Shown here one piece after another: positions 12,721 to 39,545 of a stretch of DNA of 64,000 bases; positions within the stretch are counted from its first letter, which is position 1; every line of letters begins with the position of its first letter. The stretch is from positions 1 through 64,000 of the IMG/VR virus record IMGVR_UViG_3300030012_001572. One strand, given 5' to 3'. Below the pieces are notes generated by a model. The model saw nothing but the letters and a program-made list of their open reading frames with translations, was not told where the DNA came from and ran no database searches. This DNA is from a virus. The position numbers and the translations under genes were made by a program.

Positions 12721-13383
12721 ATGACATGGAAAAAGATTTTAAAATACGATAATGTAGGAAACATGAGTATGAGGCAGTTTGGTAATAGAGTAATAGACGC
12801 TTTAGAAGCATTAGGCTTTGAGATTAAATACCATGATTACTACCCTACTGAGAAATTAAAGTATTATGATTCAAATGATTTGAGAAGAATGAGATATAGA
12901 GAATTTACTAATTTAAGTGATGAAGAAATGGAAGGATATGACGGTTCTTACAAGCAAGACCAATTTGGGCATGAATTAGTTATTACTGACATGGAAGAAC
13001 CTTATGCTTATGGTAGTGGATTTGGAGCAGATACTATGACAATTAAGTATTTGCCTGATGATTATGATTTATATTCAAATCCAAGAAACGAAGACTATCC
13101 TGTTTTAGTCATAAATAGCCTTAAAGTTCAATCAATTGAATTAAAGACTCAGGGTGGCAAAAAGGAAATTGATGTTGATATTGACACTAAAGAATTTAGA
13201 AATAGTCAATCAGGAGTAAGGGAGTTTGTTCAAGGTATTCTAAACTCTTTCAAGAAATACGGTCAGTATGAAGAAGATTATGGCGATATGACCGAACAAG
13301 AAATAAGAGAAGAAAGAAACGAAAGAGCAGGACAAAGATTTGCTGCTGGTGCAAGGTCATTAGGATATAGAGATGGCTATTGA
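12721..13383 (+). CDS. Acidic hypothetical protein with N-terminal WxxILK tag
   Basis: MTWKKILKY. Confidence 0.85.
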   Translation: MTWKKILKYDNVGNMSMRQFGNRVIDALEALGFEIKYHDYYPTEKLKYYDSNDLRRMRYREFTNLSDEEMEGYDGSYKQDQFGHELVITDMEEPYAYGSGFGADTMTIKYLPDDYDLYSNPRNEDYPVLVINSLKVQSIELKTQGGKKEIDVDIDTKEFRNSQSGVREFVQGILNSFKKYGQYEEDYGDMTEQEIREERNERAGQRFAAGARSLGYRDGY

Positions 13384-13393
13384 GGTGAATAAC

Positions 13394-14356
13394 ATGGGAG
13401 ATTGGGTGGCTATTTGGGAGGATATTCTTAAAGCACCTTATCCTAATCGTTTAGTCGGTAATAGAAAAGAAAGAGGTAATCGTCGTATTAAAGAAGGAAC
13501 TGGTAAATATGGTCTTTTCCGATATAATGAAATTAATGAATTGATTGGATATAGTGGTATTCGGGAAGAAATAGATGAAGCCTATGAAAAAGAGATTCAA
13601 AAGGTTATTAGACGGAACATTAGAGAATCTAAAAAGAAACTGGGTGATAGATATACTCCTGAATTGGAAAAGTATCTTAAAAGAAGAATAACTAAGAAAT
13701 TGACTGAACAAAAGAAAAAGAACCTTTATGCCACTACTTATGGAGAAGACGCAAAAGCACCTTTTGGAGAAGTAAAGACTAAACCTACTAGATGGTTCAC
13801 AGGATATAGAAAACTAGGCTATGACCCTAATGATGAAGAAGGTCTTAAAAAACTAATTAATAGAGTTGTAGGTGTTGGTAAAATGCGTTTCGTAGATTGG
13901 GAAGAACAAGCCCGAAAAGAACGAGAAAAAGAAAATGAAAAGTTTCGTGAAACTGTTTCTTTGTCTGGTTGGAGCAATTATCCTAGTTTAGCCGATGCTT
14001 ACAATAAAGGCCCACTTTCAGGAAGAGATTCGGCAAAAGCCGAAAGTGCTAAAATTATTACTGCTCAATCCGAAGGAAAATCAATTGCACATATCATTAT
14101 CTTAGAAATAAGCGATGGAAGAACTTGGTTTCATGAATTATCTGTTGATAGGGGATATAGAAGAAAAGGTGTCGCAGGTATGTTGATGGAACAATTGATT
14201 GAAACTTATGGTAATACTGAAATTACTGGTTTAATTATTCCTAGCGGGAGAATGTCTGAAGGACAATTGGCTCGCTTTTACAAAAGATATGGATTTAAAA
14301 CTAGAACTGTTCCTACAACAGATGGAACAATGGCTATTGAGATTAAGAGAGGATGA
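13394..14356 (+). CDS. GNAT-family acetyltransferase (C-terminal domain) with WxxILK tag
   Basis: IWEDILKA near the N-terminus; LSVDRGYRRKGVAG (motif A) and RFYKRYGF; GAGGTG RBS before ATG 13394. Confidence 0.85.
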   Translation: MGDWVAIWEDILKAPYPNRLVGNRKERGNRRIKEGTGKYGLFRYNEINELIGYSGIREEIDEAYEKEIQKVIRRNIRESKKKLGDRYTPELEKYLKRRITKKLTEQKKKNLYATTYGEDAKAPFGEVKTKPTRWFTGYRKLGYDPNDEEGLKKLINRVVGVGKMRFVDWEEQARKEREKENEKFRETVSLSGWSNYPSLADAYNKGPLSGRDSAKAESAKIITAQSEGKSIAHIIILEISDGRTWFHELSVDRGYRRKGVAGMLMEQLIETYGNTEITGLIIPSGRMSEGQLARFYKRYGFKTRTVPTTDGTMAIEIKRG

Positions 14357-14706
14357 ATAATATGTGGAAAGATATAATTAAAAATGAAAAGCAAGAGCGT
14401 ATAGCCCATGTTAAAAAATACCCATTTACTAAAGATTACCGATATGGCCGTTGTCAAGCAAATGATGGAACAGGCTGTATTAGAAATCTACAAAGTCCTG
14501 AAAGAAGGGAATATGCTCGTTCAAAGCCCGATGGTAAAACTTGTATGTATTGTGAGGATGACCATTACAGATACGGTGATGTTCCTAAAGAAATTTGGAG
14601 TTCTGAACAATGGAAAAAGGGCGACAAAGAAACAAGAAGAAAGATGTTGGATAAATATGTTAAAAGAAATCCAAGATACAATATGCGAGATTTTGAACCG
14701 TTTTGA
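14353..14706 (+). CDS. Cys-containing hypothetical protein with tag
   Basis: MWKDIIKN; four Cys. Confidence 0.8.
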   Translation: MNNMWKDIIKNEKQERIAHVKKYPFTKDYRYGRCQANDGTGCIRNLQSPERREYARSKPDGKTCMYCEDDHYRYGDVPKEIWSSEQWKKGDKETRRKMLDKYVKRNPRYNMRDFEPF

Positions 14707-14714
14707 GGGATATT

Positions 14715-14822
14715 ATGACAAGGTGTAAATTATTAGATGCGTGGCTCGATGTTCAATCAAAGAAGATTGATGAAAAAGAAAAGAAAACAGGAAAGGATAT
14801 TATAGCAGGTGTTTTAAAATGA
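14715..14822 (+). CDS. 35 aa hypothetical protein
   Basis: MTRCKLLDAWLDVQSKKIDEKEKKTGKDIIAGVLK; fills the gap, GAGG RBS, ATGA overlap with the next gene. Confidence 0.6.
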   Translation: MTRCKLLDAWLDVQSKKIDEKEKKTGKDIIAGVLK

Positions 14823-15193
14823 AATGGCAGAATATTTTAAAGAATGATGAAAGATTAGATTTAGAAGTGCAATTAGATAGGGCACTTGAAGAATGGGGAA
14901 TGGAACTGGATATTAGCGATTTTGAATACTTTGCTGATAGAAACGGCCCAAATCTTTCAGGAATAGAAATTGAAGTCACTTTTGAGGATTCATATGAAGG
15001 AGATGAAGATTTATCTCAAGAAGAAAAATTAGAACAAGATGCAGGTCATTACCGAATAGAATTTAGAACTGAAAAGGGCGATGAATTTGCTATGGCAGAT
15101 TATACTTATTATAATGGATATGAAGTCCATGAATTAGATACTGGAATGTTGGAAACAAGTGAAATAAAACAAGTTTTGGAGGCATTACAATGA
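14819..15193 (+). CDS. Acidic hypothetical protein with tag
   Basis: MKWQNILKN. Confidence 0.85.
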   Translation: MKWQNILKNDERLDLEVQLDRALEEWGMELDISDFEYFADRNGPNLSGIEIEVTFEDSYEGDEDLSQEEKLEQDAGHYRIEFRTEKGDEFAMADYTYYNGYEVHELDTGMLETSEIKQVLEALQ

Positions 15194-15339
15194 GTTGGAG
15201 AGATATAGTAAGAAAGAACAAACCAGATTTTTTAGATTTAGATAAAGATGGCGATAAGAAAGAGCCGATGAAAGAAGCGGCTAAAGATGCTAAAAAGAAG
15301 AAACCTAAATCTAAAAATCCGTTTACAAGGAAGGATTGA
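15190..15339 (+). CDS. 49 aa tagged protein with EF-hand-like DxDxDG loop
   Basis: Not in the ORF track: MSWRDIVRKNKPDFLDLDKDGDKKEPMKEAAKDAKKKKPKSKNPFTRKD; ATGA overlap. Confidence 0.8.
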   Translation: MSWRDIVRKNKPDFLDLDKDGDKKEPMKEAAKDAKKKKPKSKNPFTRKD

Positions 15340-15341
15340 AA

Positions 15342-15566
15342 ATGTCTTGGAGAAACCTATTGAAGTCTGATGCTCAAGAAGTAGTAGATAATATAGGTGA
15401 ATTAAGAGATATTTTGGAAGACTTGGATGAAGCAGTTAGAAGTTTCAATTCTGGGGAAATGATAGATTCAAAGGAATTAAAAAGCACTTTAGAAGATTAT
15501 GTTACTCGTAGCATAAAAGTTCAAAGTGCCTTTTCACAAATGGTAAAAAGAATAGCGAGGTCTTAA
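15342..15566 (+). CDS. Hypothetical protein with tag
   Basis: MSWRNLLKS. Confidence 0.8.
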   Translation: MSWRNLLKSDAQEVVDNIGELRDILEDLDEAVRSFNSGEMIDSKELKSTLEDYVTRSIKVQSAFSQMVKRIARS

Positions 15567-15567
15567 C

Positions 15568-16428
15568 ATGAAATGGTTTGATATTATTAAAGTAGAAGAC
15601 ATTGACTTTGACAAAGATTTAGAGGCTTTTGGTCAATATGGAGAAGGAATAGATGTTAGTAACCGACAGGATATGGACAAATTAATGAATAAATTAATAA
15701 TGAGTTCTGTATTTCAAAGTAAAAAACCCGACATAAAGGATTTTGTTAAAGAAAAAATTAGAATTAACCATGTAAGAATTTACGACTATCTTAAAGAAAA
15801 GTTAGGACGAGAACCAACAGATAAACAATTAATTGATTTCATTACAAGAACAATTATGCATGAAGGAACTCATGCTGCTATGGGTTCAGAACAAGATTCA
15901 ATGGCGGAACATCAAGCAGAATATGGAGCATTTACAGGACAATTCCCTGAAAGCACCTACATTAGATTATTAAATTTTGTTAGACACCCTGCTACAAGAA
16001 GAATGCTTTTCCCACCTGAACTAGCGGCTATGTTTAATATGAACATGAAAGATATTAGGCGAACTCCCGATATTATTGAAAAGGTTGAAGAACTTCTTGC
16101 TTATGTTGATGGAATAACTGAAGATATACCATCAGGTAAAAGTAAAGATTCAATAAAAGAAAAACTGACTCGTTTAGAAATAACAGCGAGACAAAAGGGA
16201 GAACCTATTGTTAGAGAGTGGCCTCATCAAAATATTAAAGAATATTACAGGTTTGCATTGAAACGCTATGGTGATGAAAATAAAGAATTATTAGATACTT
16301 TAGCAAGAGCAAACGGACTTGACCCTAATGAATTAAAAGCGGCTATGGCGGTAACTACTACTTCTGCACCGACAATGTTCAATAGAAAGGTTGTGCGAGG
16401 AAGAAAAAAGAAAAAGAGGGATGATTGA
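15568..16428 (+). CDS. Putative zincin-type metallopeptidase-domain protein with tag
   Basis: MKWFDIIKV; TIMHEGTHAA (HExxH) with a downstream E. Confidence 0.7.
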   Translation: MKWFDIIKVEDIDFDKDLEAFGQYGEGIDVSNRQDMDKLMNKLIMSSVFQSKKPDIKDFVKEKIRINHVRIYDYLKEKLGREPTDKQLIDFITRTIMHEGTHAAMGSEQDSMAEHQAEYGAFTGQFPESTYIRLLNFVRHPATRRMLFPPELAAMFNMNMKDIRRTPDIIEKVEELLAYVDGITEDIPSGKSKDSIKEKLTRLEITARQKGEPIVREWPHQNIKEYYRFALKRYGDENKELLDTLARANGLDPNELKAAMAVTTTSAPTMFNRKVVRGRKKKKRDD

Positions 16429-17540: not shown

Positions 17541-17544
17541 TACT

Positions 17545-17853
17545 ATGTGGAAAAAGATTTTAAAAGTTGATTTTTCGGAAGCCCGTAGATTAGGAGATAG
17601 ATATGCTCCTGAAGATATGGATGCTGCTAGAAAAGAAAAGAGCGAAAGCCTTCAAGGACAATTAAAGCCAGTTATTTTAAAGACTTTAGAAATGTATATG
17701 AAAGAAATGAATGAAAGAAACATTAGTGTTTTTAGAGATTCTATGTCCAGTCTATTAAGAGAATTTCCTAATCCTCCCCGCTTAAGTCGTAGCACTACTA
17801 CTGAAGCAAAGAACGATAATAAAAAGAAAATACTTGATTACTTCAAGGAGTGA
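17545..17853 (+). CDS. Hypothetical protein with tag
   Basis: MWKKILKV. Confidence 0.8.
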   Translation: MWKKILKVDFSEARRLGDRYAPEDMDAARKEKSESLQGQLKPVILKTLEMYMKEMNERNISVFRDSMSSLLREFPNPPRLSRSTTTEAKNDNKKKILDYFKE

Positions 17854-18524
17854 TTACTATGACTATTAATCGTAAAAGATGTGGCATGTGCCAACATGAA
17901 GATAGAGAAGAACTTGAGTCTATGTTAGAAACAGGACAAACAACCTGCGATGAATTAGATGCACAGTTTGATTGGAGAAGTGGAACTGCCGCCCAACATC
18001 AAAGAAATCATATGGGTAATTACACTAAAGCATCAAATCCTCGTTGTAAGTTATGCACAGACCCAATGAGGAAACACTATGAACTTGCGATTAAAGAAGG
18101 TAATATATCAACGGAGGCTGTTTCTTCGGCCTTAGACATGACAAAAGAACAGGTTCAAAGACACATTAAGCACCACTTAACGCCAATCGTGCAGCAATCC
18201 GCAGCCGCTATCATAGCAAAAAAGGATGTAAATGAAGTTGAATTGCTATCAAACAATGTTGCTAAGTTAGATATGCGTTTAGAGCAGGTCTTTAATGATT
18301 TAGGAAATGATTTAGACCCTAAGATGATTGATGCCTTAACTAAGTTAGCAAGAGAGATTAGAGAATCTTTAAAGTATCTTATGGAATTTAAGGGTAAATT
18401 GATTCACAAGCGACAAGATACAATTATTGTCGCACAAATGCAAATTGTTCAAGAAGTGCTTGCACAGAACAATCCTGAGATTTGGCTTGATATTAAGAAA
18501 AGAATGCAGGAGAGATTACAATGA
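17850..18524 (+). CDS. Candidate terminase small subunit (two CxxC-H Zn/HTH repeats plus helical C-terminal region)
   Basis: CGMCQH...HQRNH and CKLCTD...HIKHH repeats, then a coiled coil; lies upstream of TerL. Confidence 0.5.
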   Translation: MITMTINRKRCGMCQHEDREELESMLETGQTTCDELDAQFDWRSGTAAQHQRNHMGNYTKASNPRCKLCTDPMRKHYELAIKEGNISTEAVSSALDMTKEQVQRHIKHHLTPIVQQSAAAIIAKKDVNEVELLSNNVAKLDMRLEQVFNDLGNDLDPKMIDALTKLAREIRESLKYLMEFKGKLIHKRQDTIIVAQMQIVQEVLAQNNPEIWLDIKKRMQERLQ

Positions 18525-18967
18525 GTTGGCAATCTATTCTTAAAATAAGTCAAGATGATGCTTGGAGAATGGTTCAAGCACATATGGCTGAAGATAGAAT
18601 AATGCGACCAAAAAGAAAAGAAAATCATCCCCTTCGCCAAAAAGAGAAACAATTGTATAAAGATTTAAGAGCAAGATTAACAAGAGAATTAGGCCCAGAA
18701 CCTAAAGAACCTAAAGATTACATACATGACCATCCTTATTACAAATGGCACAGAACATGGAATGATTCACCCGAACAAAAGGAAATATGGGCAATACAAA
18801 GAAAAATAGATTTTGAATACCAACATGGAGTGGGTTTCTTTCAAGGGCAAGAACCTGAAGATATTACACCGTTTCATGGATTTAAACAACCTAAATTTGA
18901 TGAAGCCTTTTATAGAGAAAAAGGTTATGAACCTCCACAAAATAAAAAACACATGAAAAGGGATTAA
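18521..18967 (+). CDS. Hypothetical protein with tag
   Basis: MSWQSILKI. Confidence 0.8.
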   Translation: MSWQSILKISQDDAWRMVQAHMAEDRIMRPKRKENHPLRQKEKQLYKDLRARLTRELGPEPKEPKDYIHDHPYYKWHRTWNDSPEQKEIWAIQRKIDFEYQHGVGFFQGQEPEDITPFHGFKQPKFDEAFYREKGYEPPQNKKHMKRD

Positions 18968-18968: not shown

Positions 18969-19289
18969 ATGACTTGGTGGGATATAATTAAAGTTTCCAA
19001 AGTGAAACGAAAGATTAAACAGAAGATGAAAGAACTCGGCTATAAAATAGTTGATGAAGATGATTCAAGAGCGCATGGAGGCGCAATTGCTTTTCTTGAA
19101 CCATATCCACATGAAGGACATGAAAAGATTCACCCACACAAGTATTTTCCAGCAGGTTCTCCTAAGAATTTACCGAATCTTTTAAGAAGATTACCTGCAA
19201 AACTTCGCAATCAAACAAGAAGGGGATTTAGACCAAAGACGGGAAGTATTAACTATGACGACTATTTAAGAGAAAGAGGGAAGGCTTAG
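18969..19289 (+). CDS. Basic protein with tag, weak HicA-like pattern
   Basis: MTWWDIIKV; MKELGYKIV....SRAHG. Confidence 0.6.
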   Translation: MTWWDIIKVSKVKRKIKQKMKELGYKIVDEDDSRAHGGAIAFLEPYPHEGHEKIHPHKYFPAGSPKNLPNLLRRLPAKLRNQTRRGFRPKTGSINYDDYLRERGKA

Positions 19290-19290: not shown

Positions 19291-21516
19291 ATGAATTGGT
19301 TTAATGTTGTCAAAATTATCGGTATGCCTATGAGTAGGATATTTTTATCCAATATCGTAGTCAATAGAGCCGAGTTTGAAAACACATTAAACAAATTAAG
19401 AAGCCTACAAAAAGTTCCTAGTCGTCTTCAAGGCATAATAAATAATGATAAGTCACACAAATCTTATTATGATGAAGGAGTAAAAGCAAATACTACTGAA
19501 ATTGACCTGTCTGAAGAAGAATCAAAAGAAATGTTTGATGAAATGCTACAAATTATGGCAGAAAAAACAAAAGAATTTACTCCTAGAAAATATTATACCA
19601 TTGAAAGGACTAGAAAATTACTTTCTGAAGCAATTGAAGCCAAAAATTCTGATGAAAAAGACAAAGTTGCTGAAATTGTGTTAGAGATTATCGAAAATAA
19701 TCCTTCAAGAGCGCAATTTTGGGCTGAAAATATCCCCGAAAGAGAAAGATTGGACTTTTTAAAAGAATATTTAGAAGAAACTGAAGGAAAATCCCATCTT
19801 TTCTTTGAAAATCCACCTTCAAACAAGAAAATTTTAACAGATTTTGCTGAAATGATTGGCGGAACAGTAAAAGATGACAAAATTTTAGTAAATTTTGACT
19901 CTCAAACCGATTTAGTGCGAATTTTGCGACCCCAAGACCAAGATTCCGAAGAAACAATCAAATTAAAAGATAAAAAACTTAAATTTTACAATGAAAACAT
20001 AAGACCTCTCAAACCTAAACTCAAAAAAGGAACAGTAACTACTACAATTGATTCAAGATTGCTAGAAGCAAAAGAATTGAACATTAGAGGGGCTAAATAT
20101 CAGATTGTTGGAGAGTTTGACGAGCGTTCAGTCTTTAAATACATTGAAATTGTTGAAGGATTAAAAAATTCTAAAAGAATATGGATGCCCAAAGAACTCG
20201 CTAATGGTGATTCTTTGCCTAAAGATGATGGATTAATTTTTCTTCCAAGACAAAGCGGAAATGTTAAGTCTCTTATCCTAAATCCTTATACTTCTATTAT
20301 TCTAAACAGTAGTTTTGGTGATAAAGACTCATGGTTCAAAACATTTTTTGGTGCTTTGCGAACAAATGAAGTTTTAACTGATGATGAAGTAGAACAAATA
20401 ATTATTGATGATATTTCTCTTGCTTTAATAAATAATAGTGATGAAAGTAGATTAAAAATAAGAACTGCGTCTTTTTCAAGACTACCTAAAATAAGAAATC
20501 TTATTTTAACTATTACTGACCAAAGGACTCTTAAAAAAAGATTAAATGAAATGATTAGACAAATTATTTCTGAAAATCAAGGAGAAGGTAGTTTAGGAGA
20601 AGAACTAACTAAAAAGAAACTATCTCTCCGTAGGGAACAACTTTCTTTACTTGATAAATACTTTAGCATAAAAGAGGGCGATAAAATCGCCCCTCTTTTA
20701 AAAGAAGAATATGGCGAAGATGATGTAGATATTTTATATTACGATTCAGGAGGAAATCCTGTTGATTCTAAAAATGATGCTTTTTATGTTGATTTTGATA
20801 TTTATGGGGATAGAATAAATCCTTCTAACATCAAAGAATATATACAGAAAGAAATCAAATTAACCGAAACCCAAAGAAGTAGGCCAGCAAGAGGACTTGA
20901 ACTCGCATTAAAAGAATTAAAAGGCCTTTTAGAAAAATTACCCGAATCTGATAAATCTAAACAAATAAAAGACAAACTAAGAGAATCCTATAAAAAAGAT
21001 ATTGCTAGACTAGAACAAGCAATAAAAGACAGAAAGGATAAACCTGCATCTATTAAAGAATCAGAAAATAAAATACAACAACTAAGACAGGACTTAGTTA
21101 GACCAACTAATTTTGTTGATTATGTTATTTCTGTTGCTTCTAAGGAATCCATAAATAAATTAATAGATACTCCGCTAAGTAGTGCTTCTTCATTAGAACA
21201 GATTAGCCCCAAAAATAGTTTAATCTATCTTACTTACATGGCGGAACGGGTCGCTGACGATGTAGTGGGAGAAGCGTTTAATAAAATAAACGATAACCCC
21301 AATTCAGACGAGGCGAAAGAGGTTCTTACAAAACTTAATGATGAAATACCTAAACTATTAGGGGATATTAAAACAAATGTCATTGGTGCATTCAAAAACC
21401 GACTTCAATTCTTCTTAGATAATTACGGACAAAAATTCCAAAATAAAACTAATAAAATTCAAGTAGCACCAGCACTTAAAGCATTTATAAACGCTAACAT
21501 GATTCAGGAGGTTTAG
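19291..21516 (+). CDS. Large hypothetical protein with tag
   Basis: MNWFNVVKI; 741 aa. Confidence 0.85.
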   Translation: MNWFNVVKIIGMPMSRIFLSNIVVNRAEFENTLNKLRSLQKVPSRLQGIINNDKSHKSYYDEGVKANTTEIDLSEEESKEMFDEMLQIMAEKTKEFTPRKYYTIERTRKLLSEAIEAKNSDEKDKVAEIVLEIIENNPSRAQFWAENIPERERLDFLKEYLEETEGKSHLFFENPPSNKKILTDFAEMIGGTVKDDKILVNFDSQTDLVRILRPQDQDSEETIKLKDKKLKFYNENIRPLKPKLKKGTVTTTIDSRLLEAKELNIRGAKYQIVGEFDERSVFKYIEIVEGLKNSKRIWMPKELANGDSLPKDDGLIFLPRQSGNVKSLILNPYTSIILNSSFGDKDSWFKTFFGALRTNEVLTDDEVEQIIIDDISLALINNSDESRLKIRTASFSRLPKIRNLILTITDQRTLKKRLNEMIRQIISENQGEGSLGEELTKKKLSLRREQLSLLDKYFSIKEGDKIAPLLKEEYGEDDVDILYYDSGGNPVDSKNDAFYVDFDIYGDRINPSNIKEYIQKEIKLTETQRSRPARGLELALKELKGLLEKLPESDKSKQIKDKLRESYKKDIARLEQAIKDRKDKPASIKESENKIQQLRQDLVRPTNFVDYVISVASKESINKLIDTPLSSASSLEQISPKNSLIYLTYMAERVADDVVGEAFNKINDNPNSDEAKEVLTKLNDEIPKLLGDIKTNVIGAFKNRLQFFLDNYGQKFQNKTNKIQVAPALKAFINANMIQEV

Positions 21517-24018: not shown

Positions 24019-24225
24019 ATGACATGGGAAGAAATATTAAAGAAGAAAAAGAAGAAATCTACTGTAAATCAGTCTGGAAACTATACAAAACCTGGAATGC
24101 GGAAAAGAATCTTTAATAGGATTAAAGCAGGAACAAAGGGCGGTGCAGCAGGTCAATGGTCTGCAAGAAAAGCACAAATGCTTGCTCAAGCGTATAAAAG
24201 GGCTGGTGGTGGCTATAAAAATTAA
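24019..24225 (+). CDS. Small basic protein with tag (GQWSARKAQ family, DUF5872-like N-half from memory)
   Basis: GGTGA RBS, MTWEEILKK; GGAAGQWSARKAQMLAQAYKRAGGGY. Confidence 0.8.
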   Translation: MTWEEILKKKKKKSTVNQSGNYTKPGMRKRIFNRIKAGTKGGAAGQWSARKAQMLAQAYKRAGGGYKN

Positions 24226-24490
24226 TTGGCGTAAAATTCTAAAAGCCAAATCAAAAAGGCAACAGGATTTATCTACTTGGACTGATGAAGATTGGGGAAG
24301 TGCTGAACAACACCGAGCAAAAGCAAAAGGAAAAAAAGCACCATCTAAGACTAAAGGAAGATATATGCCGAAATCAACCTATCAAAAAACAGATAAAAAA
24401 ACCTTAAGGTATCAAGACGCAAAGAAGAGAAAAGGTCGCAAAAAAGGTATTCAGCATGTTCCAACAGGAAAGAAGTTTAGTCAAAAGTGA
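24221..24490 (+). CDS. Small basic protein with tag (DUF5872-like C-half from memory); probable ATT start
   Basis: (M)NWRKILKA...QQDLSTWTDEDWG...GRYMPK; alternative GTG start at 24209. Confidence 0.7.
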   Translation: MNWRKILKAKSKRQQDLSTWTDEDWGSAEQHRAKAKGKKAPSKTKGRYMPKSTYQKTDKKTLRYQDAKKRKGRKKGIQHVPTGKKFSQK

Positions 24491-24492: not shown

Positions 24493-24834
24493 ATGATGTG
24501 GCAAAAAATCTTAAAGGCTGACCCAAAGAAAGGAACAGGCAAGAAACCAAAAGGTTCAGCAAGAAGATTATATACAGATGAAAACCCAAAAGATACTGTT
24601 CCTGTGAAGTTTAAAACAGCAAAAGATGTAAGAGAAACATTTGCAAGTTCAGCGTTCAAATCAAAGACACATAAGAGACAATCACAAATAATTAACTTAG
24701 TTGAACAAAGAGCAAGAGTAGCGGCTAAAAGAGCAAAAGACCCCGAAGCAAAAAAGAGATTAAATGCTGCACATAAAGTTGCTTTAGCAAGAAAAGAATC
24801 AAGCAAAAGAAAAACGGAGAGGATGAAAGCATGA
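24493..24834 (+). CDS. Small basic protein with tag
   Basis: MMWQKILKADPKKGTGKKPKGSARRLYTDENPKDTV. Confidence 0.8.
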   Translation: MMWQKILKADPKKGTGKKPKGSARRLYTDENPKDTVPVKFKTAKDVRETFASSAFKSKTHKRQSQIINLVEQRARVAAKRAKDPEAKKRLNAAHKVALARKESSKRKTERMKA

Positions 24835-30242: not shown

Positions 30243-30480
30243 AAGCATGAGTTGGAGAGAACTCCATAGGGGAATAGTTTCGGATGAATTACCTGAAAAT
30301 AGAGCAAAATATGTTAGATTTACTAATCTTGCTAGTATTAATAAAAGAATGGTTATATATTATTTAAAGAGAGGTTATCAAAGACCTGAATTAAGAAATT
30401 CACTTTTAAAGGGAATTTTAGATGAAATGCTTCGTTCAAGTAATGAAAGATATGACATAGAGGATAGAGGGCAACCATAA
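30223..30480 (+). CDS. Hypothetical protein
   Basis: 85 aa ORF; start uncertain. Confidence 0.65.
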   Translation: MNMMIIKSMSWRELHRGIVSDELPENRAKYVRFTNLASINKRMVIYYLKRGYQRPELRNSLLKGILDEMLRSSNERYDIEDRGQP

Positions 30481-30532: not shown

Positions 30533-32173
30533 ATGGCAAGTGAAAAAAGAAGATTTTCCTTTACTAACTTATTTAGGCGACAAACTCCCAAACCTGCGGA
30601 TAGAACAGTCTATAATATGGGTATTCAAGAAAGAGAAAACCGTCATATGATGACTGGCCCATTACTGTATAATATTATGAATCAATCAGTAATAGGTAGA
30701 ACTTGTATTACTCAATTAAAACAAGAAGTTTTTCGTAGAGGGTATATTTGGGAAAAAGCCTATGAAGCAAGATGTAATGATTGTGGAAAAGAACATAAAA
30801 GACCTGTTCAAGAATGCGCTCGTTGTGGAAGCACTAATTTAAAAATACCTGATGAAAAACAATTAGAATATGCTGAAAAGTTTATTGAAGGTTATGTTAA
30901 TAATTCTGAACAATTATTTATTGATGTATTACAGGAACTAGAGGATGATTTAAACATTATGGACGATGCTTACATTGTCATGGTTAAAGAGTATTTCTTG
31001 GACGGTAATCAAGATATAAGAATGCATAGGATAAAAGAATTATATAGGGGCGACCCAGTAACTATGTTTATTTATACTGATGAATTAGGACAAAGAGGGA
31101 CTAAAGGATTTACTTGTGTAAATCATAGAAATGCCTTGCATACCGAACCTCATCAGCCTTGTGATATTTGCGGAGCAAAAACATTTCCTGTTCATTATGT
31201 TAATAGAGCAAACGGTGAAGAACAGTATTTCTTGCAAGGAGAAGTTCTTCATTTCAGTAAATATAGCCCTTCAAGACTCTATGGACAATCACCAGTCGTT
31301 ACTTTATTTAATGCTATTATGACATTAATTGCTATGGAAAACTATGTTAATTCATCTTATACTAAGAGTCGTATGCCAAGAGGATTACTCGCAGTTCAAA
31401 CAAGAAATATGGATTCAATGCGTTCTTTTTGGAGGGGTGTAAAAGAAAAAATGGAAGCAGACCCTCATTTTATTCCTGTTATGGGGATAGAAGCAGAAGG
31501 CGGAAAGGGTGCGGTTGAATGGATTAAATTCATGGATAGCCTAAAAGAAATGGATTATGTTTCTGTTAAGGATGATTTAAGAGATAGAATTTCTGCATTT
31601 TTTGGAGTAAGTAAAGTGTTTATGGCTGATAATACAACAAGCGGTGGATTAAACAATGAAGGTATGCAAATTCTTGTTACAAATAGAGCCGTTCAAAAAG
31701 CACAAACTGTCTATAATAATTATGTTTTCCCATTCCTTGTAAAACAATTTGGTATTACTGATTGGAATTTAAAACTACCACCGAGCGAAGAAGAAGATGA
31801 AATTGCTGTTCTTCGTAAAAGAGAAATTGAAGTTAATATTGCTGCTTCTGTTAAGAATTTAGGATTTGAAGTAGATATGGATGAAGAAGGTCAATTTACT
31901 TTCAAAAAGCCCGAACCTAAAGAAAAACCTGAAGGGGAAGGAGAAGAAGATAAACCAGTAGATAAAGACCCTTATGCGGGAACTAATATTGATGCTTCGC
32001 AATTAGGACAAATGCAGGAACAAGCATTACAGGGAAGTAAGCCGCAACAGAACCCTGCGACAACTAGAAATAAGCCTTCTATGAATCAAGGCCCAGACAA
32101 GAGACTAACAGGATTACCGTTAGATGCGGGAAATCAGAATAACGATAAAAGAACCGAAAGGAGAGTGGGTTAA
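30533..32173 (+). CDS. Portal protein with Zn-ribbon insertions
   Basis: Follows TerL; EVLHF...RLYGQSP, MPRGLL and ISAFFGV portal-like motifs; CNDC/CARC and CVNH/CDIC inserts. Confidence 0.88.
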   Translation: MASEKRRFSFTNLFRRQTPKPADRTVYNMGIQERENRHMMTGPLLYNIMNQSVIGRTCITQLKQEVFRRGYIWEKAYEARCNDCGKEHKRPVQECARCGSTNLKIPDEKQLEYAEKFIEGYVNNSEQLFIDVLQELEDDLNIMDDAYIVMVKEYFLDGNQDIRMHRIKELYRGDPVTMFIYTDELGQRGTKGFTCVNHRNALHTEPHQPCDICGAKTFPVHYVNRANGEEQYFLQGEVLHFSKYSPSRLYGQSPVVTLFNAIMTLIAMENYVNSSYTKSRMPRGLLAVQTRNMDSMRSFWRGVKEKMEADPHFIPVMGIEAEGGKGAVEWIKFMDSLKEMDYVSVKDDLRDRISAFFGVSKVFMADNTTSGGLNNEGMQILVTNRAVQKAQTVYNNYVFPFLVKQFGITDWNLKLPPSEEEDEIAVLRKREIEVNIAASVKNLGFEVDMDEEGQFTFKKPEPKEKPEGEGEEDKPVDKDPYAGTNIDASQLGQMQEQALQGSKPQQNPATTRNKPSMNQGPDKRLTGLPLDAGNQNNDKRTERRVG

Positions 32174-32487
32174 TGAATTGGTTAGATATTTTAAAGTTTA
32201 AGAGGGATTTCAAAGATTTGCGACAATTAAGAGAAGAAGGTCTTAGAAGCGGAGCAAGACAAAGAACCGCTAATAAGGTTCTTGGAGATATTTCAAGAGA
32301 ACCTAAAGGAGCAAGAACTGGAGATATTACTCAAATGCGAGAAGAAAAAGAAATGGACGATGAACTCGCTGAAATGACAAGAAGTGATTTAATGGAAGTA
32401 GTTATGGAAAGAATTGCTCAAATGTCCAAAGAAGATTTAATTAATATGCTAGTTAGAACTAGAGGTGAATTGGGGGAAAAGGTATGA
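32173..32487 (+). CDS. Hypothetical protein with tag
   Basis: MNWLDILKF. Confidence 0.8.
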   Translation: MNWLDILKFKRDFKDLRQLREEGLRSGARQRTANKVLGDISREPKGARTGDITQMREEKEMDDELAEMTRSDLMEVVMERIAQMSKEDLINMLVRTRGELGEKV

Positions 32488-32717: not shown

Positions 32718-34415
32718 ATGTTGTTTGAGTTATCTAAAAACAAAACTTTACTTAGCATACTAAGTAAAGCAGATTTAGATGAAAAAACAAGTAAATTAGT
32801 TAAAAGTAATGCTAATGCTACTGAAATCAAAAAGTCTTTGATAGAAAATATTAACTCTAAAAATATTGTCGCTTATAGAAAATATATTTTAAAAGCGGAG
32901 GAAGAAGAAGAATCGCTTCGTGAGAAAGAAGAAAAACAAACTACTGATATTCAAAGGAAAAAATTAATTAGTCTTCTTGCAGAAAAAGATAATGTTTCAG
33001 AAGAAGAAGTTGATGATTCCTTAATTCCTGAAGATAAAAAAGCAGCAAGCAGGTTAATTAGAGAATTAACTAGAGAAATAAGAACACAGAAAGATATAGG
33101 TGTTGATGAAGAAGTTGAAGAAACTTCTGAACTTACTACTGATACTGAAGCACAAGCAAAGGTTTCTGCATCTGAAGATGATAAACAAAGAAAATTAGAA
33201 AAGAAAAAGAAAGTTGCTATTAGAAGTGTAAATAAAGCACAGGCTTACCAATCAGAAGTAAAGGAATTAGTAAGTAAATTAGATTTTTCAGTAGAAAATA
33301 ATAAAGTAACTGTTAATCGTTTAGCGGAATATCAAAAGTTTGGAAACAATATTACTGAATCAAATGAAGTTATTTCTTTAGTTATGCTCTACGAAGGTGA
33401 TGAAAATTATTTAAGCAATAGATATGCAGAATTATTAGAAAATTTTGGTGATAAATTTCAAAATGTATTACTACCTTATTCAGAAAATGAAAGTGGACAA
33501 ATGATTCCACAAACTAAAAAAGCAATATTTGTTAATAACTTAGATGAAAGATGGGCGGAATTAACAAAACCCACCTATAAAGGAGTTAAGTTATCTGATA
33601 TTCTAAAAGAAATGCATCGTAAAAGACATGGTAGGCAGCCTATTGTTGATAGGAAAGATAAACAAAGAAAAGAAGAATTACAAAGACTTCAAAGGTTTAT
33701 TACAGGACAGTCTCCAAGAGATGCGACTAAGTTTAAAAAGTTAGAATCAAAGGTAAAATCTATTGGTAATAGATTAGTTTCCAATCGCTCTAGGAAATTA
33801 GCCATTCAGGATAAAATTAAAGAACTTCAAGGATTAGATGTAGAAAAGATTATTACTAGAAAGATAAGGCAAATAACATCAGGAATTAACAATTTAAAAG
33901 GAGTAAAACAAATTCAAGAGGCTATGGCAAGTGTTAAAGATATTAGGGAAAATCCTGATAAATATATACAAGAATTTACTGATGAATTAAATGAGCAAAT
34001 CGAAACAGAAAGAGAAAAACTTAATGTTATTCAATCTGAAATAGATAAGTTAGAAAAAATGACTCCTGTTTTAAAAAGAGTTCGCAGGGCTTTGGGTCAA
34101 ATAGATACCTTAAGATTCCAAACAGGTAATGAACCAGCAGGAGAAGTTAAAAGAATATTAGGCAGATTATTTGTTCATGTGGTTCGCTTAGAAAGAACAA
34201 CTAGAAAATTAGAAAATATATCTAATAGTGTAGATGATAAAACAGATGATATATTACAAGGACTTGAGAGGGGAGAAACAATCAACATAGGAGATATTGT
34301 TGATTATGATTCAGTTAGCAGTTTACAGCGTCTTAGGGAATCTTTTGATTTAGAAAGAGAAAATATAGATTCAATTATGAATGAATACGATAACTTGGTA
34401 GGTGTGGAAGAATGA
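32718..34415 (+). CDS. Coiled-coil hypothetical protein
   Basis: 565 aa, K/E-rich. Confidence 0.85.
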   Translation: MLFELSKNKTLLSILSKADLDEKTSKLVKSNANATEIKKSLIENINSKNIVAYRKYILKAEEEEESLREKEEKQTTDIQRKKLISLLAEKDNVSEEEVDDSLIPEDKKAASRLIRELTREIRTQKDIGVDEEVEETSELTTDTEAQAKVSASEDDKQRKLEKKKKVAIRSVNKAQAYQSEVKELVSKLDFSVENNKVTVNRLAEYQKFGNNITESNEVISLVMLYEGDENYLSNRYAELLENFGDKFQNVLLPYSENESGQMIPQTKKAIFVNNLDERWAELTKPTYKGVKLSDILKEMHRKRHGRQPIVDRKDKQRKEELQRLQRFITGQSPRDATKFKKLESKVKSIGNRLVSNRSRKLAIQDKIKELQGLDVEKIITRKIRQITSGINNLKGVKQIQEAMASVKDIRENPDKYIQEFTDELNEQIETEREKLNVIQSEIDKLEKMTPVLKRVRRALGQIDTLRFQTGNEPAGEVKRILGRLFVHVVRLERTTRKLENISNSVDDKTDDILQGLERGETINIGDIVDYDSVSSLQRLRESFDLERENIDSIMNEYDNLVGVEE

Positions 34416-34771
34416 CATGGGATTTTTACGGAGATGGAGAAGAATTTATTCTTAAAGAAAAGAAAAAAGAATCTCCTAAAGATATTTTAGATTCTATGGA
34501 TTCTAAGCAAAGAAAGAAGTTAAAAAAGACTTTACAGGCTGCTGAACCGACTGAATTTTTTGGACAAGACTTTACTAAATTAGGTGAACTAATATCTGTT
34601 TTGAGACAATTAGACTTAATGAAATCAGATAAGAAGTTAAATAAGAAAATGAAGTCAATGGATGAAAGGAATATTGATATAGTGGCTACTGCTACCAAAC
34701 TTCGTAAAGAGTATGAACTTCTCTATCGTCAATTAAGGGATTTAATCTATCCTAAAGGTAAAAAGAAATAA
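34412..34771 (+). CDS. Hypothetical protein
   Basis: 119 aa; MTWDFY...FILKE. Confidence 0.8.
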   Translation: MTWDFYGDGEEFILKEKKKESPKDILDSMDSKQRKKLKKTLQAAEPTEFFGQDFTKLGELISVLRQLDLMKSDKKLNKKMKSMDERNIDIVATATKLRKEYELLYRQLRDLIYPKGKKK

Positions 34772-34780
34772 GGTGAGTAT

Positions 34781-34993
34781 ATGAGTTGGTGGAATATAAT
34801 TAAAGCAAGAGGAATTGGTGGTGGCCCACCTAAAGATAGAAAGAGAAAGCCTAGATATGGAACTACTACTCCAAAAGGTTCTTATTATGATAGACTCAAT
34901 AAATTAGTTAATCGTATGCTTTCAGGTAAAATTTCTGAAGCAGAATACAAAAAAGAAAAAGAAAAACTTGAAAAGGAAAGGGATGAGAAGTGA
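34781..34993 (+). CDS. Small basic protein with tag and SHOCT-like C-terminus
   Basis: MSWWNIIKA; LSGKISEAEYKKEKEKL. Confidence 0.75.
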   Translation: MSWWNIIKARGIGGGPPKDRKRKPRYGTTTPKGSYYDRLNKLVNRMLSGKISEAEYKKEKEKLEKERDEK

Positions 34994-35229
34994 GTGAAGA
35001 AACATCTATTAATCAAGAATTACTCGCTATTATTAAGGCATTAAGTGATAAAGTAGAAAGCCTTGAAAAAGCAGTTTACAATAAAGACAATCTATTAATG
35101 AAATCAGGATTTGTTGTAGCAAACAGCCCTACTCCTGCTATGGTTGGTGTTGTTGGTGGTAAATCTCCCGATAATGTAGAAAACATGGAATGGTCTGAAA
35201 TTCATAAAATGGTAGCCAGTTTGGAGTGA
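34990..35229 (+). CDS. Small coiled-coil protein sharing its C-terminus with the protease-scaffold
   Basis: ENMEWSEIHKMV vs AEMDWSDIHKMV. Confidence 0.8.
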   Translation: MSEETSINQELLAIIKALSDKVESLEKAVYNKDNLLMKSGFVVANSPTPAMVGVVGGKSPDNVENMEWSEIHKMVASLE

Positions 35230-35234
35230 TTTAA

Positions 35235-35750: not shown

Positions 35751-35755
35751 TTGGG

Positions 35756-38275: not shown

Positions 38276-38280
38276 TTGTT

Positions 38281-38290
38281 CTTTATATAC
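38281..38290 (+). promoter_or_regulatory. Archaeal-type TATA box upstream of the protease/capsid operon
   Basis: CTTTATATAC about 30 nt before the protease start. Confidence 0.5.
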
Positions 38291-38318
38291 CAGTAAGCAG
38301 TAAGAAGGGTTGAGAGGA

Positions 38319-39545
38319 ATGGCATCAACGGTAATGCAGAACAATACCCATGATTTCAGGATTCTAAAAAGCGATAATTTGATGATTGGAGGATATGCAA
38401 GCATTGAAATCGTTGATAAACAAAATGATTTAATCACACTCAAGGCTCTTAATGAAGCAGTTAAAAAATATATGGAGAACCCTAAATTTAGAAATGTAAT
38501 GACAAATCATTCAAATGTTCAAGTTGGGGAAGTAGTAGAATCATATAGAGATAAAACAGGAAGAATATGGAAAACTGAAGTTGATGATGTTGGATTCTTT
38601 GTTGTAATTAAATTAAGAGATGATATTGAAAAAGCCAAAGAAATAAATAGAGGCATTCGTAAAGGTTCGTTAAGGTCATTTAGTATTGGAGGACAAGCAT
38701 TACAAAAAGTAAAGAAAAATCATCCAGAATTAGGTGAATTTAACGAGATAAGCAAACTAGAACTACATGAGGTTACTATCTGTGAAAAAGGCATTAATCC
38801 TGAAGCAAGGTTTGATATTCTAAAACAAGACAAAAATAAGGTGAAAACTATGAGTAAGATTGAGAAAGCATTGGCTGAATTGGACGCTCTTATGGAGGAA
38901 GTTAATACTCTCCGTAAAGAAGAAGATGATGAAAAGATGATGGACGAGAAAATGATGAACGAAAAAATGATGGAAGACAAAGAATCCATGATGGAAGAAA
39001 AAATGGGCGAAGAAGACGATGAAAAGATGATGGAAGATAAAGAATCCATGTATGCTGACAAAGAAGCAAAAGCCCTTCTTTCTACTCTTGATGGTGCAGG
39101 TGTCGAAATCGGTGAACCTGCGGATAGAATTGTTATTGACAATGGAACTCCAAAGGCTTCTGATTTGCCAGTAGTTAAGGCATTTAACAACAATGAACTT
39201 GAAACACTTGATTTGAGTGTTGCTAACATTGAAAAGGCATACGAGGCTTTCCGTCAAGAACAACTTGAAAAATTGGCTTATGATAATCTTCAAAAGTCTT
39301 TTGAAACTCGCTTTGCTAATGAAAGAGCAAACCGTGAGAACATTCTCGCAAAGTCGCAGTATGACGCACAAAGCGAAATTTCTTCTCTAAAGGAAGAATT
39401 TACTGCACTTCGCAAGTCTTTGACGGCTGAAAAGGAAACAATCCTAAAGGCTCAAGAAGACGCTACTGTTAAACTCCCATCAATGGAAGAATTGGCCGAA
39501 ATGGATTGGTCAGATATTCATAAAATGGTCGGAGGATTTAATTAA
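38319..39545 (+). CDS. HK97-type prohead protease fused to a scaffold domain
   Basis: IGGYAS.EIVDKQND, catalytic H (MTNH), SFSIGG, LHEVTIC..GINPEA; acidic coiled-coil C-terminal half. Confidence 0.92.
   Translation: MASTVMQNNTHDFRILKSDNLMIGGYASIEIVDKQNDLITLKALNEAVKKYMENPKFRNVMTNHSNVQVGEVVESYRDKTGRIWKTEVDDVGFFVVIKLRDDIEKAKEINRGIRKGSLRSFSIGGQALQKVKKNHPELGEFNEISKLELHEVTICEKGINPEARFDILKQDKNKVKTMSKIEKALAELDALMEEVNTLRKEEDDEKMMDEKMMNEKMMEDKESMMEEKMGEEDDEKMMEDKESMYADKEAKALLSTLDGAGVEIGEPADRIVIDNGTPKASDLPVVKAFNNNELETLDLSVANIEKAYEAFRQEQLEKLAYDNLQKSFETRFANERANRENILAKSQYDAQSEISSLKEEFTALRKSLTAEKETILKAQEDATVKLPSMEELAEMDWSDIHKMVGGFN
38920..39050 (+). repeat. In-frame tandem repeats encoding (D/N/E)EKMM and EDKESM
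   Basis: GATGAAAAGATGATGGA and GAAGA(C/T)AAAGAATCCATG repeated within the scaffold region. Confidence 0.8.

What the first reader, a model, noticed from the sequence alone, without database searches (positions are those of the whole stretch)
12721..39545. Putative capsid cargo-loading system: about 19 unrelated genes share an N-terminal W-x-x-I-L-K tag echoed at the scaffold C-terminus
Seen: N-termini MTWKKILK (12721), IWEDILK (13394), MWKDIIK (14362), MKWQNILK (14819), MSWRDIVRK (15190), MSWRNLLK (15342), MKWFDIIK (15568), MWKKILK (17545), MSWQSILK (18521), MTWWDIIK (18969), MNWFNVVK (19291), MTWEEILK (24019), NWRKILK (24221), MWQKILK (24496), MSWKNILK (24831), MSWFSILK (25192), MNEWQEILK (25760), MNWLDILK (32173), MSWWNIIK (34781). 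Codons vary, so conservation is at protein level, and similarity stops at the Lys. The tag is confined to the packaging/head region; I do not see it starting any left-arm or tail gene. The protease-scaffold ends in MDWSDIHKMV (W at 39507) and the 79 aa ORF 34990 ends in MEWSEIHKMV, the same W-x-x-I-x-K. Established: scaffold C-terminal helices bind the capsid interior in HK97-lineage viruses, and T4 internal proteins use a ~10 aa N-terminal capsid-targeting sequence removed by the prohead protease. Inference: a short portable tag that docks diverse proteins into the prohead and is clipped at Lys, giving a modular payload delivered with the DNA.
Basis: partly seen in the sequence, partly recalled or inferred. 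Interest (0 to 1): 0.88.

Follow-up and report, generated by a model that had tools for sequence, protein, structure and literature searches.

The report
Shared address tag on magrovirus proteins
About twenty unrelated late genes of this ocean archaeal virus (a magrovirus) open with the same eight-residue peptide, which ends like the likely cutting sites of the virus's own head protease, so it is probably a removable label that loads a changeable set of proteins into the capsid, though neither loading nor cutting has been measured.

Summary
Observation confirmed. The window is 1-64000 of a 96-kb group-B-like magrovirus (split PolB, chaperonin, RNR, two ligases). Nineteen + strand ORFs between 12.7 and 34.8 kb start M-x-W-x-x-[IV]-[ILV]-K (0.1 expected), and there are none elsewhere in the genome. 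Ile/Leu codons vary, and the proteins share nothing beyond the tag. Relatives carry 8-15 tags each, only on the morphogenesis strand. Other magrovirus groups use a longer form, M-T-A-F-D-x-A-W-x-L-L-K.

New here:
- The tag ends like conserved [IL]-L-K motifs at both edges of the S78 protease domain and in the MCP N-arm, in four virus groups. This supports clipping at Lys.
- The scaffold tail (MDWSDIHKMV) does resemble the tag in this genome, but it does not co-vary with tag type across groups. Docking in the same pocket is therefore unsupported.
- Tags can also be internal or C-terminal, and they mark newly inserted genes.

Best reading (about 0.5): a T4-CTS-like prohead-loading and processing signal. 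No virion data exist.

The scan found this tag before on at least 11 other magrovirus genomes, with the same verdict.

The parts
12721..13383 (+). Tagged ORF, 220 aa, starts MTWKKILK; acidic, no family match
13406..14356 (+). Tagged ORF, 316 aa, probable GTG start giving MAIWEDILK; GNAT acetyltransferase domain at the C-terminal end
14362..14706 (+). Tagged ORF, 114 aa, MWKDIIK; basic, 4 Cys
14819..15193 (+). Tagged ORF, 124 aa, MKWQNILK; very acidic (pI 4.1)
15190..15339 (+). Tagged ORF, 49 aa, MSWRDIVRK; basic
15342..15566 (+). Tagged ORF, 74 aa, MSWRNLLK
15568..16428 (+). Tagged ORF, 286 aa, MKWFDIIK
17545..17853 (+). Tagged ORF, 102 aa, MWKKILK
18521..18967 (+). Tagged ORF, 148 aa, MSWQSILK
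18969..19289 (+). Tagged ORF, 106 aa, MTWWDIIK; basic
19291..21516 (+). Tagged ORF, 741 aa, MNWFNVVK. In this family the tag is kept in nearly all full-length homologues down to about 22% identity. In the AF2 model residues 1-8 are unstructured. No known fold found.
24019..24225 (+). Tagged ORF, 68 aa, MTWEEILK followed by KKKKK; pI 11
24221..24490 (+). Tagged ORF, 89 aa, (ATT start) NWRKILK; pI 10.7
24496..24834 (+). Tagged ORF, 112 aa, MWQKILK; pI 10.9
24831..25181 (+). Tagged ORF, 116 aa, MSWKNILK
25192..25767 (+). Tagged ORF, 191 aa, MSWFSILK, then a roughly 90-aa basic linker, then a soluble PAP2 phosphatase domain with its catalytic motifs present
25760..26050 (+). Tagged ORF, 96 aa, MNEWQEILK, then KKKK, then DUF6321. 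Homologues carry the tag N-terminally, internally, or behind another tagged domain.
32173..32487 (+). Tagged ORF, 104 aa, MNWLDILK; directly after the portal gene
34781..34993 (+). Tagged ORF, 70 aa, MSWWNIIK; basic
30247..30480 (+). Variant tag MSWRELHR (internal ATG of ORF 30223-30480); candidate only
34412..34771 (+). Variant tag: MTW, then 9 residues, then FILK at residues 12-15; candidate only
38319..39545 (+). Head maturation protease (Peptidase_S78) fused to the scaffold. ILK at aa 15-17 lies in a disordered N-terminal extension. DILK at aa 166-169 ends the protease domain, just before a disordered linker. TILK at aa 374-377 lies near the end of the long scaffold helix. The C-terminal tail forms two short helices ending MDWSDIHKMV (nt 39501-39530).
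34990..35229 (+). 79-aa ORF ending MEWSEIHKMV (nt 35185-35214), the same tail as the scaffold; conserved in relatives
39558..40919 (+). Major capsid protein. The N-arm motif NQLLK (aa 26-30, nt 39633-39647) is conserved between variable stretches, and appears as [EDQ]-L-L-K in three other magrovirus groups.
17850..18524 (+). Untagged, conserved 224-aa Cys-rich (possibly zinc-binding) protein whose C-terminus carries W-L-D-I-K-K; a possible third tail-type motif
27297..28730 (+). Terminase large subunit. It lies in the same densely packed, same-strand gene run as the tagged genes.
30533..32173 (+). Portal protein

Best explanation
The peptide M-x-W-x-x-I-L-K is most likely a portable prohead-addressing and processing signal. 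In other magrovirus groups it takes a longer form, M-T-A-F-D-x-A-W-x-L-L-K.

Proposed mechanism, all of it inferred:
1. A short amphipathic helix with W, I and L on one face, tethered by a flexible and often Pro- or Lys-rich linker, docks late-made soluble proteins to an inner component of the assembling head (MCP N-arm, scaffold core or portal).
2. The HK97-type (S78) maturation protease then cuts after the Lys. It would use the same x-[IL]-L-K motif to free itself from its N-terminal extension and from the scaffold domain, and to trim the MCP N-arm.
3. The cargo stays in the capsid and enters the next cell with the DNA. This cargo is many small, very basic proteins, plus a GNAT acetyltransferase, a soluble PAP2 phosphatase, DUF6321 proteins and a 741-aa protein. 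In a related group it includes a Dam-type methyltransferase.

What is shown: the tag, its distribution, its conservation, and its match to the conserved motifs in the head proteins.
For: Enrichment:
- 19 N-terminal tags against 0.1 expected.
- Protein-level conservation with varied codons.
- No similarity among the 19 proteins beyond the tag.

Placement:
- Tags occur only on the morphogenesis strand, upstream of and within the head module. This holds in this genome and in five near-complete relatives (8-15 hits in four of them, 2 in an 80%-complete record; reversed-pattern control 0-1).
- The tagged genes sit in a tightly packed gene run with terminase.

Portability:
- Tagged genes are accessory and turn over quickly, while untagged neighbours are conserved.
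- Newly inserted genes downstream of MCP in relatives also carry the tag.
- The DUF6321 domain occurs with the tag, behind another tagged domain, or with other N-terminal modules.
- In long-tag lineages a Met often directly follows the tag's Lys, as if the tag had been added in front of an older start codon.

Deep conservation: the 741-aa family keeps the tag at 22-30% identity.

Tag not part of the fold: residues 1-8 have pLDDT below 50.

Match to likely protease sites:
- I-L-K at aa 15-17 is invariant, L-K at aa 168-169 is invariant, and I at aa 167 is nearly invariant, across 24 protease-scaffolds that include two distant groups.
- Both sites lie in or next to disordered segments.
- [EDQ]-L-L-K in the MCP N-arm is conserved in four groups at about 36% identity.
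- Internal ILK is enriched in head-module proteins, 8 observed against 2.7 expected, reached in 2 of 500 shuffles.

Cargo properties: all tagged proteins are soluble and 13 of 19 have pI of 8.5 or higher.

Precedents:
- T4 CTS and gp21 self-activation.
- HK97 cleavage at K103/S104.
- The 80alpha helix-and-hook RIIK motif docking on the MCP N-arm.
Against: - There are no virion, proteomic or expression data for any magrovirus; the hosts are uncultured.
- The scaffold tail does not co-vary with tag type across groups, so the one sequence clue to a capsid-side receptor is weak.
- The ILK motifs at the edges of the protease domain could be structural rather than cleavage sites. The second one ends a predicted beta-strand.
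- The M-like site is not conserved as ILK in other groups, which have TIAK, DLQK and TITK instead.
- Some tags are internal or C-terminal, which a strictly N-terminal signal would not predict.
- About 20 cargo species, roughly 15% of the genes, is far more than the T4 precedent.
- A Dam-type methylase or a GNAT would work equally well in the cytoplasm.
Confidence: 0.5

Rival explanations
1. The tag is a short linear motif that binds some other common partner unrelated to encapsidation. Candidates are a host factor, the conserved viral small GTPase, or a membrane surface bound through the amphipathic helix. It would bring a changeable set of late proteins to one place in the cell.
For: - The peptide is a generic amphipathic helix followed by basic residues.
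- It works at N-terminal, internal and C-terminal positions, as docking motifs do.
- The scaffold tail does not co-vary with it.
- A small GTPase is conserved in all four groups and lies near the tag clusters in G006-G008.
Against: - The tag is strictly restricted to the morphogenesis strand, next to terminase, portal and protease.
- The tag's end matches conserved motifs of the head protease and MCP.
- No tagged protein has a membrane segment.
- The chaperonin is excluded as an obligatory partner, because tag-rich G007 (100% complete) has none.
Confidence: 0.22
2. The tag is only a propeptide or processing signal. It would be removed by the viral or a host protease to activate or time the proteins, and the proteins would not be packaged.
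For: The tag ends in the putative protease motif. T4 gp21 itself is activated by removal of nine N-terminal residues.
Against: - An eight-residue unstructured peptide is unlikely to inhibit 19 unrelated folds.
- The S78 protease is expected to act inside the prohead, so its substrates must get there. That expectation rests on established knowledge of HK97-like assembly.
- The conserved Trp and helix upstream of the cut site imply a binding role beyond the cleavage site itself.
Confidence: 0.12
3. The shared N-terminus is a relic of common descent. The genes would be fast-diverging paralogues, or would have been captured repeatedly behind one leader exon-like cassette, with no present function for the peptide.
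For: The genes are clustered and turn over quickly. Fusions between tagged modules exist.
Against: - There is no detectable similarity beyond the tag.
- The tag is kept while the rest of the 741-aa family falls to 22% identity.
- It is present on recognisable, unrelated domains: GNAT, PAP2, DUF6321 and Dam.
- Synonymous sites have drifted, so the peptide is under purifying selection.
Confidence: 0.06
4. The conservation acts on the mRNA or on translation start, as a start-region element that boosts initiation, and not on the protein.
For: All tags sit at start codons behind Shine-Dalgarno-like GGAG/GAGG sequences.
Against: - Leu and Ile positions use up to eight different codons, while the amino-acid class is fixed.
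- The same peptide occurs internally and C-terminally in relatives.
- The long form conserves twelve residues across genomes with GC content from 33% to 50%.
Confidence: 0.03

Closest known systems
Capsid targeting sequence (CTS) of phage T4 internal proteins IPII/IPIII (and the N-terminal peptides of IPI and Alt), removed by the gp21 prohead protease (PMC9958956, PMC3012670)
   Same: - A short (about 10 aa) N-terminal peptide shared by otherwise diverse, often basic proteins.
- It ends in the head protease's cleavage motif.
- The MCP and the protease itself lose N-terminal peptides at the same kind of site.
- The cargo is a polymorphic, fast-changing set.
   Different: - There is no sequence relation.
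- The protease is HK97-type S78 (Lys at the presumed P1 position), not T4 gp21 (which, from my own knowledge, cuts after Glu).
- The host is an archaeon.
- About 20 carriers per genome instead of a handful.
- The tag also occurs internally and C-terminally.
- Nothing has been shown experimentally.
Helix-and-hook RIIK motif of the phage 80alpha scaffolding protein and SaPI1 CpmB (PMC5644958)
   Same: [quoted passage not shown] The motif is portable between unrelated proteins (SP and CpmB).
   Different: The 80alpha motif is at the C-terminus of scaffolding proteins and is not a cargo label. Here the motif is mostly N-terminal and sits on enzymes and small basic proteins. Binding has not been shown.
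HK97 maturation protease gp4 and capsid protein cleavage at K103/S104 (PMC10275583); C-terminal encapsidation tail of gp4 (Duda et al. 2013, from my own knowledge, not read here)
   Same: The window's protease matches Pfam Peptidase_S78, 'Caudovirus prohead serine protease'; that HK97 gp4 belongs to this family is from my own knowledge. HK97 cuts its capsid protein after Lys, and a short terminal peptide is enough to bring a protein into the prohead.
   Different: The HK97 targeting tail is C-terminal and is known only on the protease. No multi-protein cargo set is known there.
Herpesvirus protease-scaffold (UL26) release and maturation sites (from my own knowledge)
   Same: A protease fused to a scaffold, with one cut at the protease/scaffold boundary and one about 25-30 residues from the C-terminal MCP-binding tail. 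Here these would be DILK at aa 166-169 and TILK at aa 374-377, the latter 31 residues from the end.
   Different: The cleavage motif is different (Ala/Ser). The sites here are inferred only from conservation and the AF2 disorder pattern.
Encapsulin targeting peptides (Family 1 consensus SDGSLGIGSLKRS; N-terminal TVGSL on ferredoxins; PMC8346489)
   Same: A short terminal peptide rich in small and hydrophobic residues, ending in Lys, that loads unrelated cargo into an HK97-fold shell. N-terminal versions exist.
   Different: Encapsulins are cellular compartments without DNA, protease or scaffold. The consensus sequence is different, and the peptide is not removed.

Membership tests
T4-type capsid targeting sequence system | Short N-terminal peptide shared by otherwise unrelated proteins of one virus | tested here: met
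   19 ORFs, no similarity beyond the tag
T4-type capsid targeting sequence system | The peptide ends in the cleavage motif of the virus's own prohead protease, which is also used on MCP and the scaffold | tested here: inconclusive
   x-[IL]-L-K recurs at conserved, disorder-flanked positions of the protease-scaffold and in the MCP N-arm. No cleavage site has been determined experimentally.
T4-type capsid targeting sequence system | The peptide is sufficient to encapsidate a foreign protein, and carriers are found processed in virions | not testable with these tools
   No virion or proteome data exist for magroviruses
T4-type capsid targeting sequence system | Homology to the T4 CTS or to the gp21-type protease | tested here: not met
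   The protease matches Pfam Peptidase_S78, 'Caudovirus prohead serine protease', and no other Pfam family at E <= 0.01; HK97 type and distinct from T4 gp21 by my own knowledge. The tag sequence is unrelated to MKTYQEFIAE. So this is an analogue, not a member.
Scaffold coat-binding helix (80alpha helix-and-hook, P22 helix-turn-helix) | Amphipathic helix followed by a hydrophobic-hydrophobic-basic hook | tested here: met
   The tag consensus places W at position i, I at i+3, L at i+4 and K at i+5. The long form is A-F-D-x-A-W-x-L-L-K.
Scaffold coat-binding helix (80alpha helix-and-hook, P22 helix-turn-helix) | Located at the C-terminus of a scaffolding protein and co-evolving with the MCP | tested here: not met
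   The tags are mostly N-terminal and on non-scaffold proteins. Tag type does not track the scaffold tail across G000, G006, G007 and G008.
Magroviruses (Philosof et al. 2017), group B/B1-like | Tailed-virus head module with a halovirus-like MCP; archaeal-type replication genes; split PolB; RNR; chaperonin; two ATP-dependent ligases, one of them inside the structural module | tested here: met
   MCP is closest to HCTV-1. PolB in pieces, Cpn60/TCP1, RNR and a replicative ligase. Second ligase at 35756-38275. Features as described in PMC5434244. No phylogeny was made.
Encapsulin cargo-loading peptide | Cargo gene lies next to an encapsulin shell gene; consensus GSL-type peptide; no DNA packaging genes | tested here: not met
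   The shell protein is a virus MCP accompanied by portal, terminase and tail genes

The most novel reading that the evidence does not exclude
An abundant family of ocean archaeal viruses uses one 8-12-residue removable peptide to load up to about 20 different proteins, roughly one gene in six, into the capsid. These include enzymes that act on DNA, lipids or proteins. They would be delivered with the genome. New genes would join the arsenal simply by acquiring the peptide. This would be the largest tag-addressed virion cargo system known, and the first in an archaeal virus.
Probability: 0.4. Interest if true: 0.8.

Novelty: new variant of a known kind. Interest (0 to 1): 0.6.

Why it matters
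Magroviruses are among the most abundant viruses of surface-ocean archaea, and nothing is known about how they take over their uncultured hosts.

If the tag is a capsid address, it identifies, from sequence alone, the set of proteins injected with the DNA in each virus. These are likely counter-defence and takeover factors, and the set changes quickly between relatives.

It would also show that the T4 solution, a removable N-terminal label read by the head protease, arose independently in an HK97-type archaeal virus.

Finally, it offers a very short, natural loading peptide that can be tested in recombinant capsids without culturing the host.

Tried and rejected
- **Nucleotide-level explanation:** rejected, because codons vary.
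- **Paralogy:** rejected. All-against-all BLASTP of the tag-less proteins gives nothing better than E = 0.036.
- **Membrane or secretion signal:** no hydrophobic segment in any tagged protein.
- **Chaperonin as the tag's partner:** G007 (100% complete, about 12 tags) has no chaperonin, and none was found in G008.
- **Co-variation of tag and scaffold tail:** looked for and not found.
- **Same feature in the nearest cultured relative:** the HCTV-1 head module has no such tag and no shared tail.
- **Function of the 741-aa tagged protein:**
  - Pfam and PHROGs gave nothing.
  - The ESM Atlas gave no usable hit.
  - HMMER found only 40 magrovirus-type representatives.
  - The AF2 model (pLDDT 80) has no significant match by Foldseek in PDB.
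  - BFVD returned only unnamed viral proteins.
  - VIA-align returned only helical hairpins, with Z of 8 or less.
- **Literature:** full-text searches within the two magrovirus papers I opened (PMC5434244, PMC11706807) for N-terminal, motif, cargo or scaffold found no mention of the tag.
- **Genomic context of distant DUF6321 homologues:** I used the search for related loci instead.

Full report
**What the sequence is.** The window is bases 1-64000 of a 96,129-bp virus record. The MCP is most similar to those of haloarchaeal and methanogen tailed viruses (23% identity to HCTV-1). The other strand carries a family-B DNA polymerase in separate pieces, a Cpn60/TCP-1 chaperonin, a ribonucleotide reductase and an ATP-dependent ligase. 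A second ligase lies inside the head module at 35756-38275. This set of features is the one described for group B/B1 magroviruses of Marine Group II archaea (PMC5434244). Genes at 8-66 kb run on the + strand in this order: early-looking cassettes, the tagged block, terminase, portal, protease-scaffold, MCP, tail. The replication genes run on the - strand.

- A six-frame search for W-x-x-[ILVM]-[ILVM]-[KR] finds 39 hits in the window.
- Two starts need correcting: GTG 13406 rather than ATG 13394, and ATT 24221, the only possible start for that ORF.
- The per-position rate in the rest of the proteome predicts about 0.1 such N-termini, against 19 observed.
- Tag consensus: Met at -2 (14 of 19), W (19 of 19), D/N/K at +2, I at +3 (17 of 19), L/I/V at +4, K at +5 (18 of 19).
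- The Leu/Ile position uses eight different codons, so selection acts on the peptide.
- In the whole genome the tag is confined to 12.7-34.8 kb.
- With the tag removed, the 19 proteins are unrelated by BLASTP.
- All are soluble, and 13 have pI of 8.5 or higher, several with a Lys run directly after the tag.
- Recognisable domains are a GNAT acetyltransferase, a soluble PAP2 phosphatase and DUF6321.

**It is a property of the virus group.**
- Loci around homologues of the 741-aa gene carry 6-14 tags each.
- A degenerate DNA pattern for the tag hits four near-complete relatives 8-15 times each (an 80%-complete fifth, twice), always on the morphogenesis strand. The reversed pattern hits 0-1 times.
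- Tagged genes turn over quickly. Apart from DUF6321, none is recognisable in more distant groups, while the neighbouring untagged terminase and a 224-aa Cys-rich (possibly zinc-binding) protein are conserved.
- Relatives also have tagged genes inserted downstream of MCP that have no counterpart here.
- The 741-aa family has only 40 representatives among 1.8 billion clusters. Nearly all full-length members, down to about 22% identity, start M-S-W-[FQ]-x-[IV]-L-K.

**A longer form in other groups.**
- Three whole genomes whose protease-scaffold is about 50% identical (G006, G007, G008; GC 38-47%) carry M-[TS]-A-F-[DE]-x-A-W-x-[LI]-[LIV]-K on 6-12 ORFs each, as do several other contigs.
- Most of these tags are N-terminal.
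- Some are internal. One example lies in front of a Dam-type methyltransferase in a 778-aa ORF of G007.
- One is C-terminal (G008).
- Some internal copies are preceded by Met and a GGnGA-like sequence, so nested starts are possible.
- DUF6321 proteins show every arrangement: tag plus domain, an untagged domain followed by tag plus domain, and a tagged domain followed by a W-less remnant plus domain.

**Where the tag points.** The protease-scaffold and the 79-aa ORF both end M-[DE]-W-S-[DE]-I-H-K-M-V. They share even the Met at W-2 with the tag, and this tail is conserved in 66 relatives. AF2 folds it as the second of two short terminal helices, like a coat-binding helix-turn-helix.

The echo does not survive comparison across groups. 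G006 keeps a similar tail (MSWDEVHALA) but uses the long tag. G007 and G008 have DGW-[LR]-A-[AL]-E-[DE]-L with that same long tag. I therefore do not accept 'same pocket' as supported.

**What does track the tag is the motif at its end.**
- In 24 protease-scaffolds, two from distant groups, I-L-K at aa 15-17 and L-K at aa 168-169 are invariant, and I at aa 167 is nearly so.
- The first motif lies in a disordered N-terminal extension (pLDDT below 50 for residues 1-18).
- The second closes the last strand of the S78 domain, right before a disordered linker, after which the sequences of the groups diverge.
- A third site, ETILK, lies 31 residues from the C-terminus. It is less conserved elsewhere: TIAK, DLQK, TITK.
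- The MCP N-arm carries NQLLK between variable stretches, and [ED]-L-L-K-A-D-S-P in the other three groups at about 36% identity.
- Some protease N-termini themselves read like W-less tags, for example MTTILKS and MSLLMKR.
- Internal ILK is enriched in head-module proteins only: 8 observed against 2.7 expected, reached in 2 of 500 shuffles.
- This layout has three parallels. T4 gp21 removes short N-terminal peptides from internal proteins, 65 residues from gp23 and nine from itself. HK97 cuts its capsid protein at K103/S104. The herpesvirus protease-scaffold has release and maturation sites (my own knowledge).

**Docking precedent.** An amphipathic helix followed by hydrophobic-hydrophobic-Lys is what docks the 80alpha scaffold and SaPI1 CpmB onto the MCP N-arm (RIIK; PMC5644958). 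In the AF2 model of the 741-aa protein (pLDDT 80) the tag is unstructured and outside the fold.

**Rivals.**
- A non-capsid docking motif cannot be excluded, because the tag works at several positions and the receptor is unknown. It leaves the strict head-arm placement and the match to the protease motif unexplained.
- The chaperonin is not the partner, since G007 lacks one.
- A signal that only directs processing, paralogy, and an mRNA-level element are each contradicted by specific results.

**Status.**
- Earlier notes of this scan describe the same tag on at least 11 other magrovirus genomes, including the long form, with the same verdict. My tests were run independently on this genome and agree.
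- The two magrovirus papers whose text I searched (PMC5434244, PMC11706807) do not mention the tag.
- I class it as a new variant of a known kind: a CTS-like cargo label in an HK97-type archaeal virus.
The mechanism is inferred, with about even odds.

Noticed in passing
window 24215-24244: The tagged ORF at 24221 has no ATG/GTG/TTG start. The only in-frame candidate is ATT 24221, which overlaps the TAA of the upstream gene and has GGTGGTGG upstream. The ORF is 96-99% conserved in two relatives.
   Followed up: partly
window 35756-38275: An 839-aa ATP-dependent DNA ligase lies between portal and protease. A ligase-like gene sits upstream of the protease in G006-G008 as well. This structural-module ligase is already described for magrovirus groups A and B (PMC5434244).
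   Followed up: partly
window 25192-25767: A PAP2-superfamily phosphatase without any membrane segment. The KxxxxxxRP, PSGH and SRxxxxxHxxxD motifs are present, behind a roughly 90-aa Lys-rich extension.
   Followed up: partly
window 25760-26050; proteins P0059-P0120: DUF6321 is very widespread (3,796 hits). In other viruses it is preceded by different small modules: a Cys-rich (CxCC-type) N-terminal module, A-F-D-x-A-W-x-L-L-K, or both. The hydrophobic-L-K plus Lys-run junction is always kept just before the domain.
   Followed up: partly
G006, G007, L090, L163 (long-tag lineages): Met directly after the tag's Lys is unusually common, for example ...AWSLIK-M-P and ...AWAVLK-M-G. This suggests either tags added in front of an older start codon, or dual starts giving tagged and untagged isoforms.
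   Followed up: no
window 17850-18524: A conserved 224-aa Cys-rich (possibly zinc-binding) protein (26-32% identity in G006-G008) ends in E-I-W-L-D-I-K-K-R-M. The L088 homologue ends S-W-K-R-I-K-S-Q-L. Its role is unknown; small terminase or a regulator are possibilities.
   Followed up: partly
window 28740-30101: A 453-aa protein with an HNH endonuclease-like region (PHROG 5046) lies directly after the terminase large subunit.
   Followed up: no
window 42605-43273; G006 7042-7701; G007 8785-9459; G008 82621-83271: A small GTPase-like protein is conserved in all four magrovirus groups. In G006-G008 it lies near or among the tagged genes, while here it lies downstream of MCP.
   Followed up: partly
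window 55925-62926: A 2,333-aa ORF at the end of the tail module has no Pfam match.
   Followed up: no
L088 3918-5360: A 480-aa ORF of another magrovirus group carries two internal copies of K-P-M-[ED]-I-A-Y-Q-L-L-K, a Tyr variant of the tag one residue shorter, between what look like separate modules.
   Followed up: no
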